Virus record (IMG/VR): IMGVR_UViG_3300032116_000047
Strand: one strand, 5' to 3'
DNA: 64,000 nt
DNA from: an uncultured virus (IMG/VR IMGVR_UViG_3300032116_000047)
Taxonomy: Duplodnaviria > Heunggongvirae > Uroviricota > Caudoviricetes
Shown: positions 1 to 36,757 of the stretch, in pieces
Layout: every line of letters begins with the position of its first letter
How positions within the stretch are numbered: position 1 is the stretch's first letter
Notes under the pieces: generated by a model
What the model saw: only the letters and a program-made list of their open reading frames with translations
The model's database searches: none
Told to the model about the DNA's origin: nothing
Position numbers and translations under genes: made by a program

Positions 1-62
1 TCATTACTTGAGTTTGATAAAATGATATGATCAGAATGTAACCAGTCTACGTGCTTCATTTG

Positions 63-132
63 TACCGCGTATGAGGTTCGAACTCACTTAACATAGGATA
101 TGAGCCAATGTTCTTTTCCACTAAGCCGCGGC
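63..132 (-). tRNA. tRNA-Met (CAU), probably elongator; Ile2 not excluded; short D-arm
   Basis: Anticodon arm cattgg-CTCATAT-cctatg; T-arm gtgag-TTCGAAC-ctcat. Confidence 0.75.
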
Positions 133-138
133 ATTTTG

Positions 139-229
139 TACTCCAGGTCGGATTTGAACCGACAACGTTCACCACACAGGGTATGGGATTTTAAGTCCCA
201 TGCGTTTCAACCAGTTTCGCCACTGGAGC
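139..229 (-). tRNA. tRNA-Leu (UAA)
   Basis: tggga-CTTAAAA-tccca, long variable arm, A73. Confidence 0.9.
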
Positions 230-237
230 AATTTTTG

Positions 238-328
238 TACCTCAGGTCGGACTCGAACCGACAACGTTTGCCACTTGGGTACTAGATCCTAAGTCTAGCG
301 CGTTTCAACCAAATTTCGCCACTGAGGC
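238..328 (-). tRNA. tRNA-Leu (UAG)
   Basis: ctaga-CTTAGGA-tctag, long variable arm, GGTTCGAGTCC T-arm. Confidence 0.9.
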
Positions 329-350
329 AGTTTAACAGAGGAAAGTATTG

Positions 351-434
351 AGAGTGATTTTACTGAGGGACTTGAACCCTCAAAAGTTTGATTATAAGTC
401 AAATGTGTATACCAATTTCACGAAGTAACACTCT
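351..434 (-). tRNA. tRNA-Ile(UAU)-like element with an irregular, extended acceptor helix
   Basis: tttga-CTTATAA-tcaaa anticodon arm; gaggg-TTCAAGT-ccctc T-arm; acceptor ttact/agtaa extended by agagtg/cactct. Confidence 0.55.
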
Positions 435-450
435 TAATCACCATCTGTTG

Positions 451-523
451 TTGGAGATGTGGGTTACGATCCCACTACCTCTTGCATGTCGGGCAAGTGC
501 TCTACCAATTGAGCTAATCTCCA
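451..523 (-). tRNA. tRNA-Val (GAC)
   Basis: cttgc-CCGACAT-gcaag; T-loop ATCGTAA; U1-A72. Confidence 0.85.
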
Positions 524-529
524 ATTTTG

Positions 530-601
530 AGCTGATGGAGGGAGTCGAACCCACATATTTGCGTTACAAAGGCAATGTAATGACCATTATACGACATCAG
601 C
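530..601 (-). tRNA. tRNA-Thr (UGU)
   Basis: Loop TTTGTAA; acceptor gctgatg/catcagc; GGTTCGACTCC. Confidence 0.85.
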
Positions 602-610
602 GTTATGTTG

Positions 611-693
611 AGCACCTGGAGGGACTTGAACCCCCGTGACTGGGTTTGCAATCCAGTGCCTTCCGTATTTCTACTCCACTCGACCACAGGTGC
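611..693 (-). tRNA. tRNA-Cys (GCA) with enlarged D-loop
   Basis: Loop TTGCAAA; U73; D-loop insert gtagaaatac. Confidence 0.85.
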
Positions 694-703
694 TTATATG
701 TTG

Positions 704-777
704 TTGGACTGGCGGGTAACGATCCCACTACCTCGAAGGTATCAGCTTCGCGCTCTGACCATTTGAGCTACAGTCCA
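704..777 (-). tRNA. tRNA-Ile (GAU)
   Basis: cgaag-CTGATAC-cttcg; T-loop ATCGTTA. Confidence 0.85.
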
Positions 778-784
778 ATTTTTG

Positions 785-857
785 TAGTCCTGGTCGGTTA
801 CGATCCGACTCCCTCCACTATGTAACAGTGGCGCTCCCCCGATTGAGCTACAAGACT
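785..857 (-). tRNA. tRNA-Val (UAC)
   Basis: ccact-GTTACAT-agtgg; T-loop ATCGTAA. Confidence 0.85.
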
Positions 858-864
858 ATTTTTG

Positions 865-953
865 CGGGCCAGGCAGGATTCGAACCTACTTTATTTCAAT
901 TTTTCATACAGTGATTAACAGTCACCAGCTAAAACCAAATCAGCTACAAGCCC
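865..953 (-). tRNA. tRNA-Asn (GUU) with a long variable region
   Basis: ggtga-CTGTTAA-tcact; G73; about 20 nt variable loop. Confidence 0.8.
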
Positions 954-960
954 ATTTTAG

Positions 961-1033
961 TAACTCCTACAGGATTCGAACCTGTATCCTCGCTTTAGAA
1001 GAGCGATGTCCTGTCCCGTTGAACGAAGGAGCC
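961..1033 (-). tRNA. tRNA-Arg (UCU)
   Basis: tcgct-CTTCTAA-agcga; GGTTCGAATCC. Confidence 0.9.
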
Positions 1034-1043
1034 AAATTTTATT

Positions 1044-1080
1044 AAAACAAAAAACCCTCAGATTTTCATCTGAGGGTTCT
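1044..1080 (-). terminator. Intrinsic terminator (attenuator) upstream of tRNA array 1
   Basis: AACCCTCAGAT-gaaa-ATCTGAGGGTT followed by a U-tract, directly 5' of tRNA-Arg. Confidence 0.9.
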
Positions 1081-1107
1081 TTTTATATTTAGTTATAAAT
1101 TTACACT

Positions 1108-1221
1108 TTATAAGACAAATTTACTAAATACAGGAGAACCCTCAGATGGTCTAATATTACATAACGTAATATTCACCACATTGAGTGTCAGGTTCATCAT
1201 ATTTGTCATATTTGTTCTCAT
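1108..1221 (-). CDS. Leader peptide of tRNA array 1 (37 aa, MRTNMTNMMNLTLNVVNITLCNIRPSEGSPVFSKFVL)
   Basis: Read by hand; codons 1-24 encode only M,R,T,N,L,V,I,C, the amino acids of the downstream array; 1135-1148 is a perfect 14-nt complement of the terminator 5' arm. Confidence 0.85.
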   Translation of the reverse strand: MRTNMTNMMNLTLNVVNITLCNIRPSEGSPVFSKFVL

Positions 1222-1277
1222 TGTTGTTATATATAAAAAGTTACTACTCTCTTTAGAGTTTTTGTCATTATTTTATA

Positions 1278-1309
1278 CAAAAATAGAAAAAAGTTTTAAT
1301 TATACCAAA
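1278..1309 (-). promoter_or_regulatory. Bacteroidota sigma-A-type promoter (TTTG-N20-TATTTTTG) upstream of the array 1 leader
   Basis: Matches the established -33 TTTG / -7 TAnnTTTG consensus. Confidence 0.7.
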
Positions 1310-1341
1310 TTTTGCATTATAAATTTTAATATATATCTAAG

Positions 1342-5729: not shown

Positions 5730-5810
5730 TCGACAAGGTGGGATTCGAACCCACGTTTTCAACTTCCCGCTACGTGTATAGAATGTATAAGATTCCAACG
5801 GTACTTGCCG
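5730..5810 (-). tRNA. Non-canonical, D-armless tRNA-Ile(UAU)-like RNA
   Basis: Acceptor cggcaag/cttgtcg + A73; T-arm gtggg-TTCGAAT-cccac; hairpin ggaat-CTTATAC-attct lies just after the acceptor 5' strand. Confidence 0.55.
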
Positions 5811-5844
5811 AAATAAAAAAACCCAGTCTTTTGAGACTGGGTTA
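5811..5844 (-). terminator. Intrinsic terminator (attenuator) upstream of tRNA array 2
   Basis: AACCCAGTCT-caaa-AGACTGGGTT followed by a U-tract. Confidence 0.9.
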
Positions 5845-5867
5845 AATAAATATGTAGAGTCAAAATC

Positions 5868-5948
5868 TTACATAACATAACTCAGTCTCTCGACTAAACG
5901 CCCCGCGCCTGTCGCTATAACTCCTGATATGTATGTGAAATTTTTCAT
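5868..5948 (-). CDS. Leader peptide of tRNA array 2 (26 aa, MKNFTYISGVIATGAGRLVERLSYVM)
   Basis: Codons 7-16 are ATA tca GGA gtt ATA GCG aca GGC GCG GGG; 5878-5889 matches the terminator 5' arm at 11/12. Confidence 0.8.
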   Translation of the reverse strand: MKNFTYISGVIATGAGRLVERLSYVM

Positions 5949-6086: not shown

Positions 6087-6093
6087 ATATTTG

Positions 6094-6170
6094 AACTACC
6101 CATAGGACTCGAACCCATAACCCTCGGGCCGTGTGACCCGTGTGCAAACCAATTTACACCATAAGTAGTT
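6094..6170 (-). tRNA. tRNA-like gene, anticodon undetermined (6-nt loop CACACG); possible pseudogene
   Basis: D-arm, cgggt/gcccg stem and GGGTTCGAGTCC T-arm present; loop irregular. Confidence 0.5.
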
Positions 6171-6265
6171 AATCAAGTAGATATATCAGAAATTACTGGT
6201 ACCAAATCTCACTGCGATATGTGATACATCTTCTTGTTAGAGTCGGTTAATTACTCCGACTTTTG

Positions 6266-6344: not shown

Positions 6345-6479
6345 TTATTCATATCCTAATATGAATATTTCGTATAAAACTTCATCATTAAATGTAGAAA
6401 AACTACAAGGGTCAAATTGTTCAAAGTTTTTACACCAAGCTTTGAATACTTTAGACTTTATAGAAGGAACTCTTTTCAT
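6345..6479 (-). CDS. Small hypothetical protein (likely start MKRVPS)
   Basis: Follows the TTTG-N20-TATCTTTG promoter; the upstream extension in the ORF track overlaps the terminator. Confidence 0.45.
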   Translation of the reverse strand: MKRVPSIKSKVFKAWCKNFEQFDPCSFSTFNDEVLYEIFILGYE

Positions 6480-6498
6480 ATTTGTTTCTTTTGTTTTA

Positions 6499-6550: not shown

Positions 6551-6586
6551 ATAAAAAAACCCAGACCGAAATCGGACTGGGTTTGT
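6551..6586 (-). terminator. Intrinsic terminator (attenuator) upstream of tRNA array 3
   Basis: AAACCCAGtCCG-attt-CGGtCTGGGTTT followed by a U-tract. Confidence 0.85.
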
Positions 6587-6603
6587 TTAAAGTAATCAAA
6601 TCG

Positions 6604-6675
6604 TTACAACATACAAACTCGTCCGACTGGGTTTAAACCCTCGGCTTCGTAATAATATGTTGCTAATCCTTTCAT
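6604..6675 (-). CDS. Leader peptide of tRNA array 3 (23 aa, MKGLATYYYEAEGLNPVGRVCML)
   Basis: TAT TAT TAC GAA gcc GAG run matches downstream tRNA-Tyr and tRNA-Glu; 6613-6626 is complementary to the terminator 5' arm. Confidence 0.8.
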   Translation of the reverse strand: MKGLATYYYEAEGLNPVGRVCML

Positions 6676-6693
6676 ACTTTTTAATTTTTTTAG

Positions 6694-6766
6694 TAGCGGG
6701 GGCCGGACTCGAACCAGCGACCTCTAGGTTATGAGCCTAGCGAGCTACCAACTACTCCACCCCGCA
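6694..6766 (-). tRNA. Initiator tRNA-fMet (CAU)
   Basis: Unpaired U1:U72; ctagg-CTCATAA-cctag; lies upstream of leader 3, so outside attenuation. Confidence 0.85.
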
Positions 6767-16428: not shown

Positions 16429-16434
16429 TTTTAG

Positions 16435-16521
16435 CGGAGAACAGAGGAATTGAACCCCATACCAATGTACAGTACAACTCGCTTAGCAGGCGGTCCTAAT
16501 CACCAGATTAGTTTATTCTCC
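16435..16521 (-). tRNA. tRNA-Ser (GCU)
   Basis: Loop CTGCTAA; long variable arm; G73. Confidence 0.85.
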
Positions 16522-16527
16522 TTTTTG

Positions 16528-16605
16528 CGGAAGAGTGAGGTATCGATCTCCATACCACGAAAGTACCACTAGTTTTAAGACTAGGTCAAGCTTAATTACT
16601 CTTCC
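16528..16605 (-). pseudogene. Degenerate tRNA-Ser, probably (UGA) with a 1-nt anticodon deletion
   Basis: Ser-type body (G73, long variable arm); ctagt-CTTAAA-actag 6-nt loop; reduced D-arm. Confidence 0.55.
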
Positions 16606-16611
16606 TTATTG

Positions 16612-16686
16612 TAGTTCCAGAGGGATTCAAACCCTCACATTTCTCGGTTCGTAGCCGAGTGTTTTGTTCAGTTAAACTATGGAACT
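16612..16686 (-). tRNA. tRNA-Arg (ACG)
   Basis: ctcgg-CTACGAA-ccgag. Confidence 0.85.
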
Positions 16687-16697
16687 ATATCAGTTTG

Positions 16698-16768
16698 CAC
16701 ACCTGCTTGGGCTCGAACCAAGAACACTGATTTTGGAGATCAGCATGATACCATTTCACCACAGATGT
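16698..16768 (-). tRNA. tRNA-Trp (CCA)
   Basis: ctgat-CTCCAAA-atcag; G73. Confidence 0.9.
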
Positions 16769-16775
16769 ATTTTAG

Positions 16776-16846
16776 CGCGGATGTAGAGATTCGAACTCTA
16801 ACGGTGAGGGGTTGGAATCCTACCGACTAAACCTACGCTCATCCGC
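16776..16846 (-). tRNA. Atypical tRNA, probably Trp (CCA)
   Basis: Acceptor gcggatg/catccgc, G73, TTCGAAT T-loop, loop TTCCAAC; weak D and anticodon stems. Confidence 0.5.
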
Positions 16847-16860
16847 GTGTTTATTTTTAG

Positions 16861-17258: not shown

Positions 17259-17295
17259 AAAACAAAAAAGTCCGAACTTTTTACGGTTCAGACTT
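17259..17295 (-). terminator. Intrinsic terminator (attenuator) upstream of tRNA array 4
   Basis: AAGTCTGAAC-cgtaaaaa-GTTCGGACTT followed by a U-tract. Confidence 0.85.
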
Positions 17296-17321
17296 CACAA
17301 GTATTTATAATCTATAAGTTA

Positions 17322-17423
17322 TTACACTTCTAAATTTGAGCAATACTCTTTTAGTACCGAACCAAAGTGACTAAACCACTTCGACGATCTACTAAAATGC
17401 TTATGTGTGCGAATTGCTCTCAT
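17322..17423 (-). CDS. Leader peptide of tRNA array 4 (33 aa, MRAIRTHKHFSRSSKWFSHFGSVLKEYCSNLEV)
   Basis: Codons 7-20 encode only H,K,F,S,R,W, the amino acids of the downstream array; 17353-17363 pairs with the terminator 5' arm. Confidence 0.85.
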   Translation of the reverse strand: MRAIRTHKHFSRSSKWFSHFGSVLKEYCSNLEV

Positions 17424-17866: not shown

Positions 17867-18292
17867 CTATTTAAGTATATCTTTTATTACTTCTGAAACC
17901 ACTTTTTTATCAGCTGGTAATTGAGCAAACTCTTTCATAATTGCTCCAATATTAGTTATACCAGATGTTACTACTTCACTAACTTTTTGGCTAATTTCGT
18001 CTCGACTCATTTGTTTTGGTAGGTAACATTGTAGTATTGCTAATTCAGCGCAAGCTTGAACTATATCTTCGCCTTTACCATCAATTGGTGATAATGATTT
18101 AATGGTCTCATTAAGGGATTTTGCTGTTTTAGTCAAAATCTTCAGAACATCTTCGTCGGATAAATCTTCAACTCCTGTATTTTTCTCTGCAGTTTGAATT
18201 TCTCCTTTCACAACAGAAAGCAAGTTTTTTGCAACAGTATTCTTTGCTTTGAATGCTGTCATGTAATCTTTGTTAATTTGTTCTTTTATCAT
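17867..18292 (-). CDS. GatB/YqeY domain protein
   Basis: EQINKDYMTAFKAK...LQCYLPKQMS...GAIMK motifs. Confidence 0.85.
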   Translation of the reverse strand: MIKEQINKDYMTAFKAKNTVAKNLLSVVKGEIQTAEKNTGVEDLSDEDVLKILTKTAKSLNETIKSLSPIDGKGEDIVQACAELAILQCYLPKQMSRDEISQKVSEVVTSGITNIGAIMKEFAQLPADKKVVSEVIKDILK

Positions 18293-20413: not shown

Positions 20414-20848
20414 TCATAAACCTCGTTGTATTTCTCTTTTTATATCTCTTTCTTTGATAGATTGTCTTTTATCATAAAGCTTCTTACCCTTTACAACTCC
20501 AATTTTAACTTTTAACTTATTGTTTTTAACAAAGACCGAAAGTGGAACACAAGTTACACCTTTGTCCTCCATCATTCGAGATATTTTAACAATTTGAATT
20601 TTTGTAAGTAGTAATTTTTTTTCTCTACTTTCGTCATGTTTTTCAGAAAGATGTGTTTGTTTATATCTACTTACTTTAAAGTTCTTAATCCAGACTTCAC
20701 CAGATTTTAAATAAATAAAAGAATCAGTTAAGGTAACATTACCCATTCTAATTGATTTAACTTCTGAACCTATAAGCACAATTCCAGCTTCAAATTCTTC
20801 AAGAATATGATACTCAAAATACGCTTTTCTATTATTCACTATACTCAT
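20414..20848 (-). CDS. smpB: SsrA-binding protein SmpB
   Basis: NRKAYFEY...EAGIVLIGSEVKSIR...GKKLYDKR motifs. Confidence 0.95.
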   Translation of the reverse strand: MSIVNNRKAYFEYHILEEFEAGIVLIGSEVKSIRMGNVTLTDSFIYLKSGEVWIKNFKVSRYKQTHLSEKHDESREKKLLLTKIQIVKISRMMEDKGVTCVPLSVFVKNNKLKVKIGVVKGKKLYDKRQSIKERDIKREIQRGL

Positions 20849-35680: not shown

Positions 35681-36757
35681 ATGATAAACACAATTGGAAA
35701 CCCAGAATTAGCTTTTTTGTTTGAAGAAGATTCATTCAAGAAAAAAAAGAGAACAGAGAAAGAGATTGAACTTTCAAAACTTTACGAAAAAACCTTCGTC
35801 GAGATGCCAGTTACTGGACAGGTAGTAAAAGCCGAATACTCCGGTAAAACAACATCACACTATGTTTTTTCTGTAACTGGTTACAAAGATGATGTTAGAG
35901 TAGATGATAGAGTTTCTGAGTCAAAGTATCTTAGAAATTCTACTATTGGAGATATTGTAGATGTTCTCATAATTGATGTAAATCACGATGATTTCTTTAT
36001 CAAAGGGTCTATTTCAACACTCTATGAAAACTTAGCACATGAGAGCCTTAAATCCTTAAAAGAAGGGGAATCAGTTACAGCCTACATTAAATCTTTAAAT
36101 CCTGCTGGATATGATGTGGAGATTAGAAATGGTGGTGTTACACTTCCTGGATTTATGCCAAATACACTAGCTGGTATCAACAAATTGTATGATGTGAATT
36201 CTATCGTTGGTCAGACTTTTGAAGTAATGATTGAATCTTATGCTGAACAAGAAGGAACGTATATAGTTTCTAGAAGAAAATACCTTCAAACTTTAATTCC
36301 ACAAGCTATTAAGGAACTTAATTATGACATCTCTTATAAAGGTCACGTAACAGGAACAACACCTTTTGGAGTATTTGTTGAGTTCAATGAATGTTTAACA
36401 GGAATGATACATAAAGCAAATGTTAATCCTGATTGGCAAGACAGACTTTCTGAAATTAAGCCTGGTTTTGAAATTGAGTTCTATATAAAAGAAATTGTAA
36501 GAGAAAAAATTATTCTTACACAAATTCTTAGAGAAACACTTTGGGATAATATCAAAAATGGTCAAACATTAAATGGTGTTGTTAAAGAAGTTAAACAATT
36601 TGGAACTTTAGTTAATTTAGATGATGAGACGGTTGGTCTTATACATACTTCAGAAATGGAGAAATTGAAATCAAAGTTTCAATCAGAACAAGAAATCAAA
36701 GTGAAAGTTCTTTCTGTAGATAGAGCTTCGCGAAAAATCTTCCTTACTCTAGCCTAA
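35681..36757 (+). CDS. Ribosomal protein S1-like multi-S1-domain protein
   Basis: Tandem S1 domains: PFGVFVEF...GMIH, QFGTLVNL...GLIHTSEM, KVKVLSVD...KIFLT. Confidence 0.85.
   Translation: MINTIGNPELAFLFEEDSFKKKKRTEKEIELSKLYEKTFVEMPVTGQVVKAEYSGKTTSHYVFSVTGYKDDVRVDDRVSESKYLRNSTIGDIVDVLIIDVNHDDFFIKGSISTLYENLAHESLKSLKEGESVTAYIKSLNPAGYDVEIRNGGVTLPGFMPNTLAGINKLYDVNSIVGQTFEVMIESYAEQEGTYIVSRRKYLQTLIPQAIKELNYDISYKGHVTGTTPFGVFVEFNECLTGMIHKANVNPDWQDRLSEIKPGFEIEFYIKEIVREKIILTQILRETLWDNIKNGQTLNGVVKEVKQFGTLVNLDDETVGLIHTSEMEKLKSKFQSEQEIKVKVLSVDRASRKIFLTLA

What the first reader, a model, noticed from the sequence alone, without database searches (positions are those of the whole stretch)
1044..1310. Attenuator 1: 24-codon sensor for eight amino acids with a perfect 14-bp antiterminator
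SEEN: leader codons 1-24 are ATG AGA ACA AAT ATG ACA AAT ATG ATG AAC CTG ACA CTC AAT GTG GTG AAT ATT ACG TTA TGT AAT ATT AGA. The downstream tRNAs are Arg-UCU, Asn-GUU, Val-UAC, Ile-GAU, Cys-GCA, Thr-UGU, Val-GAC, Ile-UAU-like, Leu-UAG, Leu-UAA and Met-CAU. All eight amino acids occur in both sets, and 23 of the 24 codons (all but CTC) are readable by an array tRNA with normal wobble. The next segment, CATCTGAGGGTTCT (1135-1148), is the exact complement of AGAACCCTCAGATG (1067-1080), the terminator 5' arm. INFERENCE: it acts as an OR-gate, where a stall at any sensor codon permits antitermination.
Basis: partly seen in the sequence, partly recalled or inferred. Interest (0 to 1): 0.9.

Follow-up and report, generated by a model that had tools for sequence, protein, structure and literature searches.

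The report
Codon-matched attenuators gate megaphage tRNA arrays
This giant phage places a tiny "test" gene, written in the codons that the following tRNAs read and wired to a switchable transcription stop, in front of each block of its tRNA genes, so it probably makes a given set of tRNAs only when ribosomes slow down on those codons.

Summary
A 37-codon leader (1221-1108, minus strand) precedes a terminator and an 11-member tRNA array; 22 of codons 2-24 are read by array anticodons (33% background), and the 14-bp complement is the only such repeat in the window. In 63 distinct homologues the frame, codon bias and three exclusive helices (1:2, 2:3, 3:4) are kept, with three wholesale helix replacements. 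It is one of four such units here and of up to seven per related 0.25-0.64 Mb phage: in 45 of 45 units from 9 genomes the array decodes its own leader best, down to isoacceptor (AGA vs CGN, ATY vs ATA). Best reading: trp/ilv-type ribosome-controlled attenuation used as feedback on the phage's own tRNA supply. Unshown: translation, termination control, and the trigger; 'any codon' holds only in a kinetic model, and the perfect 14 bp is not conserved (the 7-9 bp core is). Ten literature searches found no description. This scan noted the same kind of element before on other phage DNA (17 notes, one a look-alike of this leader).

The parts
1278..1309 (-). Putative host (Bacteroidota-type) promoter: TTTG at 1309-1306, 20-nt spacer, TAnnTTTG box at 1285-1278
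   Evidence: Sequence; the TAnnTTTG consensus is recalled, not from a call; box present within 130 nt upstream of 72 of 91 leaders versus 9% of random 130-nt windows
1228..1242 (-). AT-rich motif just upstream of the leader start, possibly a second (phage) promoter or translation-start element
   Evidence: 17 matches with up to 2 mismatches in the window versus 5.4 expected, many just before genes; loose form before 73 of 91 leaders; role inferred
1108..1221 (-). Leader ORF, 37 codons
   Evidence: open in 63 distinct homologues; all gaps in the sensor part of a 12-sequence alignment are multiples of 3
1150..1221 (-). Sensor codons 1-24 (Met, Arg-AGA, Thr, Asn, Leu, Val, Ile-ATT, Cys)
   Evidence: 1409 of 1435 sensor codons in 63 homologues encode these eight amino acids, versus 245 of 818 codons after the last AGA
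1135..1198 (-). 1:2 hairpin (anti-antiterminator) inside the leader
   Evidence: -20.2 kcal/mol, z -2.7, 1 of 200 shuffles; segment-2 core paired upstream in 56 of 63 homologues versus 27% of 420 codon-order shuffles
1067..1148 (-). 2:3 antiterminator: 14-bp outer helix (1148-1135 with 1080-1067) plus an inner helix around the stop codon
   Evidence: -33.1 kcal/mol, z -9.3, 0 of 200 shuffles; covariation
1044..1082 (-). 3:4 intrinsic terminator with U-tract
   Evidence: -21 kcal/mol, z -7.1
61..1033 (-). tRNA array: Arg-UCU, Asn-GUU, Val-UAC, Ile-GAU, Cys-GCA, Thr-UGU, Val-GAC, tRNA-like gene with variable anticodon, Leu-UAG, Leu-UAA, CAU tRNA
   Evidence: an identical contig (L070, 4179 of 4179 nt) shows no further tRNA beyond the window edge
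5820..5948 (-). Sister unit: Ile-ATA/Ala/Gly leader and terminator before a UAU-loop tRNA-like RNA, Ala-UGC, Gly-UCC
6560..6675 (-). Sister unit: Tyr/Glu leader and terminator before Glu-UUC, Tyr-GUA; an initiator-type CAU tRNA (6693-6766) lies upstream, outside the gate
17267..17423 (-). Sister unit: His/Lys/Phe/Trp/Ser/Arg leader and terminator before Phe, Lys, Lys, His, Phe, Trp, Arg-ACG, Ser-GCU

Best explanation
A ribosome-controlled transcription attenuator that sets expression of a block of phage tRNA genes by how fast the codons those tRNAs read are decoded. Host RNA polymerase starts at the upstream promoter (inferred). If the leader is read quickly, the ribosome covers segment 2 (codons 25-34), then 1:2 re-forms behind it, 3:4 forms and transcription stops at about 1045 (structures predicted, order inferred). 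If charged Asn, Thr, Leu, Met, Val, Ile-GAU, Cys or Arg-UCU tRNA is short, the ribosome lingers on the sensor codons, 2:3 forms first and the array is transcribed (inferred). The products are the tRNAs that relieve the stall, so each unit is a negative-feedback loop. The phage divides its tRNA set among four to seven such units, each with its own matched leader. Shown here: anatomy, conservation, covariation, leader-array matching. Inferred: translation, switching, feedback.
For: Cognate bias in the window. 63 distinct homologues keep ORF, bias and spacing: 54 of 63 have 13 codons from the last AGA to the stop; 53 of 63 have 10 nt from AGA to the GGG anchor. Frame-keeping indels. Segments 2, 3 and 4 change together in three lineages (L011; L027/L033 group; L065); the two variable core positions pair in 27 of 27 haplotypes with three pair types each, mirrored in 3:4; own segment 2:3 duplex -19.0 versus -15.0 kcal/mol for permuted pairs, 0 of 100,000. 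1:2 kept in 56 of 63. Array decodes its own leader best in 45 of 45 units in 9 genomes; true pairing ranks first in each genome (1 of 5040 in three); 0 of 200,000 permutations; 44 of 45 after dropping all Ile-UAU calls and codons 2-5. Isoacceptor split: this leader class uses AGR 80, CGN 0 and ATY 102, ATA 3; Ser/Arg leaders before Arg-ACG use CGN 8, AGR 2 (phage ORFs: AGR 412, CGN 55); leaders before Ile-UAU use ATA 18, ATY 3. Modelled switch point coincides with the end of the cognate run. Leader-peptide attenuation is reported as likely in Flavobacterium amino-acid operons (PMC9723704, passage).
Against: No transcript, ribosome or in vitro data; RNA runs held only fragments of relatives. 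At full equilibrium the terminator wins for most stall positions in 9 homologues, and for all tested positions in L002, L008 and L065. Before segment 4 is made, 2:3 also wins with no ribosome or with the ribosome at the stop, so the off state needs kinetic trapping of 1:2 or timing. Homologues are related and were found with a pattern that fixes about six sensor codons, so counts are not independent. Codons 15-24 also form part of the 1:2 hairpin, and codons 2-6 resemble the Lys/Thr/Asn/Ile-rich starts of all leader classes, so not every codon need be a sensor. Other leader classes are only 12-72% cognate.
Confidence: 0.8

Rival explanations
1. Same switch, but it reports general translation slow-down (antibiotics, ribosome shortage, uncoupling), with little codon specificity in practice.
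For: Any stall or absence of ribosomes upstream of codon 25 allows 2:3 in the model; a 23-codon, eight-amino-acid sensor is broad.
Against: Seven leader classes each match their own array, to isoacceptor level; a general sensor would not need this.
Confidence: 0.1
2. The leader is a small protein or structured RNA gene with a constitutive, leaky terminator; the codon match reflects AT-richness and RNA structure.
For: N, T, I, L, M codons are AT-rich and common at all leader starts; part of the sensor is a hairpin.
Against: Segment 2 changes with the terminator arm; peptide after codon 24 is variable and only 30% in the eight amino acids; matched poly-Gln, Tyr/Glu, Pro/Asp, Ser/Arg and His/Lys/Phe/Trp leaders.
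Confidence: 0.05
3. The switch is thrown by a phage or host protein or RNA binding the leader (PyrR/T-box style) rather than by the ribosome.
For: Alternative helices alone do not identify the effector; weak sub-threshold PyrR match (25.3 bits, cut-off 54).
Against: Conserved open frame with frame-keeping indels and fixed stop distance; no T-box or other Rfam family at gathering score.
Confidence: 0.05

Closest known systems
Multivalent leader-peptide transcription attenuators of amino-acid operons (E. coli thr, ilvGMEDA, ilvBN; also trp, his, leu, pheA) - recalled; general mechanism as stated in passages of PMC4833913
   Same: Short leader ORF rich in cognate codons, exclusive 1:2, 2:3 and 3:4 helices, intrinsic terminator, several amino acids sensed by one leader.
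   Different: Controlled genes are tRNAs, not enzymes; in a phage; eight amino acids in one leader; matching extends to isoacceptors; a genome-wide set of units. No sequence membership: His_leader 25.2 of 49 bits, Phe_leader 22.4 of 55 bits.
pheM-pheST attenuator of E. coli (recalled, not read)
   Same: Leader senses charged tRNA and controls a part of the translation machinery that relieves the stall.
   Different: Output is a synthetase for one amino acid; here it is the tRNAs themselves.
Anabaena trn operon under TrcR (PMC10272220, abstract; PMC8421152, listing and two passages)
   Same: A long tRNA array that is silent by default and induced by translational stress.
   Different: Control is by a DNA-binding repressor at initiation and is not codon-specific; 'attenuat' and 'leader' do not occur in the main text of PMC8421152.
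Phage tRNAs as counter-defence to tRNA-cleaving immunity (PMC10264068, PMC11555353, PMC11464382; search listing and start of abstracts only)
   Same: Gives a reason for a phage to resupply particular tRNAs.
   Different: I saw no inducible, codon-sensing control in the parts shown; nothing here shows that tRNA cleavage is the trigger.
Mahaphage clade of huge phages (PMC7162821, passages)
   Same: The two best matches to this array are 642 kb and 635 kb genomes; the paper places its five genomes over 634 kb in Mahaphage with predicted Bacteroidetes hosts. That the two records are among the five, and that the window is of this clade, is my inference.
   Different: The main text has no occurrence of 'attenuat' or 'leader'; its supplements were not searched.

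Membership tests
Ribosome-mediated (leader-peptide) transcription attenuator | Short upstream ORF enriched in codons tied to the downstream genes | tested here: met
Ribosome-mediated (leader-peptide) transcription attenuator | Intrinsic terminator between leader and controlled genes | tested here: met
   (prediction and conservation only)
Ribosome-mediated (leader-peptide) transcription attenuator | Mutually exclusive antiterminator overlapping the ORF 3' part and terminator 5' arm | tested here: met
Ribosome-mediated (leader-peptide) transcription attenuator | 1:2 anti-antiterminator/pause hairpin | tested here: met
   pausing itself not tested
Ribosome-mediated (leader-peptide) transcription attenuator | Geometry: stall on control codons frees segment 2, further progress covers it | tested here: inconclusive
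   Met before segment 4 is made, only partly at equilibrium
Ribosome-mediated (leader-peptide) transcription attenuator | Leader is translated and read-through responds to charged-tRNA level | not testable with these tools
   No informative RNA data
Rfam leader families (His, Phe, Trp, Thr, Leu leaders) and T-box | Match at gathering score | tested here: not met
   Only tRNA hits at gathering score in the window; His_leader and Phe_leader at about half their cut-offs
Amino-acid operon attenuators in the strict sense | Controlled genes are biosynthetic enzymes or synthetases | tested here: not met
   Controlled genes are tRNAs

The most novel reading that the evidence does not exclude
These megaphages carry a genome-encoded monitor of the whole tRNA pool: four to seven codon-matched attenuators that together cover all 20 amino acids at isoacceptor resolution, each turning on only the tRNA block that has become limiting. 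This would act as an inducible, self-limiting answer to tRNA-destroying host defences or to late-infection demand, and the way tRNAs are grouped behind leaders would map which host tRNAs fail together.
Probability: 0.5. Interest if true: 0.92.

Novelty: new variant of a known kind. Interest (0 to 1): 0.82.

Why it matters
Why phages carry tRNAs is a long-open question (codon compensation versus replacing destroyed host tRNAs). A codon-matched feedback switch says the tRNAs are made on demand and makes the question testable with simple reporters: each leader is a ready sensor for shortage of a defined tRNA set in Bacteroidota. It also extends attenuation from enzyme operons to tRNA genes, and explains why these phages group their tRNAs as they do.

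Tried and rejected
No whole genome for the window, so the Pro/Asp/Gln unit seen in relatives could not be checked here. The neighbouring ORF 1342-1908 found no relatives. RNA runs X1-X3 gave only short pieces of related sequences, no piece over the leader in the one firm RNA run: uninformative. Two scans of bacterial and archaeal genomes found no such unit: 0 hits for this leader; 13 hits for the His/Lys/Phe/Trp pattern, none with tRNA genes within 2.6 kb downstream; exact patterns miss divergent forms. The idea that leaders gain Ser/Arg codons when the Ser/Arg array fuses with the His/Lys/Phe/Trp array is rejected: leaders of unfused arrays hold them too. The Tyr/Glu + Ile/Ala/Gly fused leader of G001 (L113) is suggestive but a single case with array data. 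The first column counts mis-registered about nine units and were redone. The first large footprint run timed out and was repeated on the window plus 9 homologues. No phylogenetic correction was made. Rows dropped before the 63-unit count: 14 distinct metagenome pattern hits with no leader, terminator or tRNA (chance matches), duplicates, and hits cut by contig ends.

Full report
Setting. The window is AT-rich, with phage-family matches for ligase, primase, SbcC, sigma factor, ClpP-like and tRNA-amidotransferase-like proteins (6 of 12 proteins tested have these named PHROG matches, one more an unnamed family) and 21 tRNAs at default thresholds, all on the minus strand in three places. The best DNA matches to each array are two uncultured phage genomes of 642 kb and 635 kb. 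Al-Shayeb et al. state that their five genomes over 634 kb are Mahaphage with predicted Bacteroidetes hosts (PMC7162821, passages); placing the window near them is inference, helped by a Bacteroidota-type promoter box (consensus recalled) before 72 of 91 leaders against 9% of random windows.

Observation. The codons, the 14-nt complement and the terminator are as described. 22 of codons 2-24 are read by array anticodons against a 33% background, 3 of the next 13 are, and no other 14-nt inverted repeat of this spacing exists in 64 kb. Cys-GCA and the CAU tRNA are real but atypical; the 'Ile-UAU' gene has a variable anticodon. A contig identical over 4179 nt shows the array ends at the CAU gene.

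Anatomy. This is the classical attenuator layout.

Homologues. Pattern scans gave 7 and 6 viral and 89 metagenome hits; after removing duplicates, cut contigs and 14 chance hits, 63 distinct units remained. 1409 of 1435 sensor codons encode the eight amino acids (25 of the 26 exceptions are Lys at codon 2 or 3), against 245 of 818 codons after the last AGA; about six codons per unit are fixed by the search pattern. Indels in the sensor part keep frame in the 12 sequences aligned. Segments 2, 3 and 4 are rewritten together in three lineages, the two variable core positions pair in 27 of 27 haplotypes, while the outer three positions pair in only 15, 21 and 24 of 27: the 7-9 bp core, not a perfect 14 bp, is what is kept. 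1:2 is kept in 56 of 63. These sequences are related, so the independent events are few.

A system, not one element. The window holds three more leader-terminator units, and relatives hold up to seven: Asn/Thr/Leu/Met/Val/Ile/Cys/Arg-AGA; Tyr/Glu; Ile-ATA/Ala/Gly; His/Lys/Phe/Trp; Ser/Arg-CGN; Pro/Asp; and poly-Gln. In 45 units from 9 genomes or contigs each array decodes its own leader better than any other leader of that genome, and the true pairing ranks first among all pairings in each; 44 of 45 hold under stricter settings. The match follows isoacceptors: AGR 80 and CGN 0 in this class, CGN 8 and AGR 2 in Ser/Arg leaders; ATY 102 and ATA 3 here, ATA 18 and ATY 3 in Ile/Ala/Gly leaders. 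That argues for sensing of particular tRNAs rather than of amino acids alone. An initiator-type CAU tRNA sits upstream of a leader, outside the gate, in the window and several relatives, as expected if it cannot be sensed by elongation.

Mechanism. With a ribosome footprint of 13 nt past the first P-site base, the 2:3 core forms at all sampled A-site codons from 2 to 24, is blocked from 25 to 34, and is free again at 36-38; in 9 homologues the switch falls right after the last AGA (6) or within three codons (3). This supports the OR-gate if 2:3 forms before segment 4 is made. Against it: at full equilibrium the antiterminator wins mainly for stalls near codons 7-17 in the window and rarely in several homologues, and the no-ribosome and ribosome-at-stop states need 1:2 to be trapped to give termination. 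Which codons count, and the default state, are therefore open. The trigger (tRNA cleavage, starvation, or demand late in infection) is not shown; making more tRNA helps only in the first and last, which is why I favour tRNA supply as the controlled quantity (inference).

Known and new. It works like a multivalent amino-acid attenuator but is not a member of any Rfam leader family and controls tRNA genes. Ten full-text searches of the open library showed no title or abstract start describing attenuation of tRNA genes in phage or bacteria; I read only listings for most hits, subscription papers are absent, and supplements of the huge-phage paper were not searched. The nearest functional case is the repressor-controlled Anabaena tRNA operon. 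Earlier notes of this scan describe the same kind of element in at least 17 other genomes, one a look-alike of this leader; I had stated my reading before opening them and did not test them. What this analysis adds is the within-genome leader-by-array test, the isoacceptor split and the three-way covariation.

Verdict. Real, conserved and very probably a translation-controlled attenuator (0.8 for the codon-specific reading); new variant of a known mechanism; interest 0.82.

Noticed in passing
window 5730-5810 (-); L001 9907-9989; L118 1293-1377; L001 and L011 in the Asn/Leu array: Atypical tRNA-like RNAs: normal acceptor and T arms, but a hairpin with a canonical 7-nt anticodon-type loop sits where the D arm should be. 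The loop reads UAU in Ile/Ala/Gly arrays and GAU in the Asn/Thr/Leu array, with compensatory stem changes (5 distinct sequences). Possibly rearranged tRNA-Ile or nuclease decoys.
   Followed up: partly
window 356-430 (-): tRNA-like gene with weak acceptor stem whose anticodon switches among TAT, TAA, CAA and TCT in close homologues; all four amino acids belong to this array's set.
   Followed up: partly
window 610-693 (-): tRNA-Cys-GCA with a roughly 10-nt D-loop insertion shared by many relatives and absent in others; missed or miscalled by ARAGORN.
   Followed up: partly
window 6345-6480 (-): A 44-codon ORF with its own Bacteroidota-type promoter box lies between the Tyr/Glu terminator and tRNA-Glu, which could let this array bypass its attenuator.
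   Followed up: no
window 16430-16850 and 6090-6260 (-): Further tRNA-like genes below default thresholds (Trp-like, Leu/UAA-like, Ser-GCU, and unassigned ones) inside the arrays.
   Followed up: no
L113 (G001) and L142: A single leader mixing Tyr, Glu, Gly, Ala and Ile codons; in L113 it precedes one fused Glu/Tyr/Gly/Ile/Ala array that is two units in other genomes.
   Followed up: partly
L114 1331-1403; L124 1133-1205; L112: CUA-anticodon (amber-reading) tRNAs in two relatives and a low-score UUA-anticodon call in a third.
   Followed up: no
window 20414-20848, 17867-18292, 35681-36757: Translation-related genes near the arrays: SmpB-like (recognised by eye; unnamed PHROG match), tRNA-amidotransferase/YqeY-like (PHROG 1460) and an S1-like repeat protein (by eye).
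   Followed up: no
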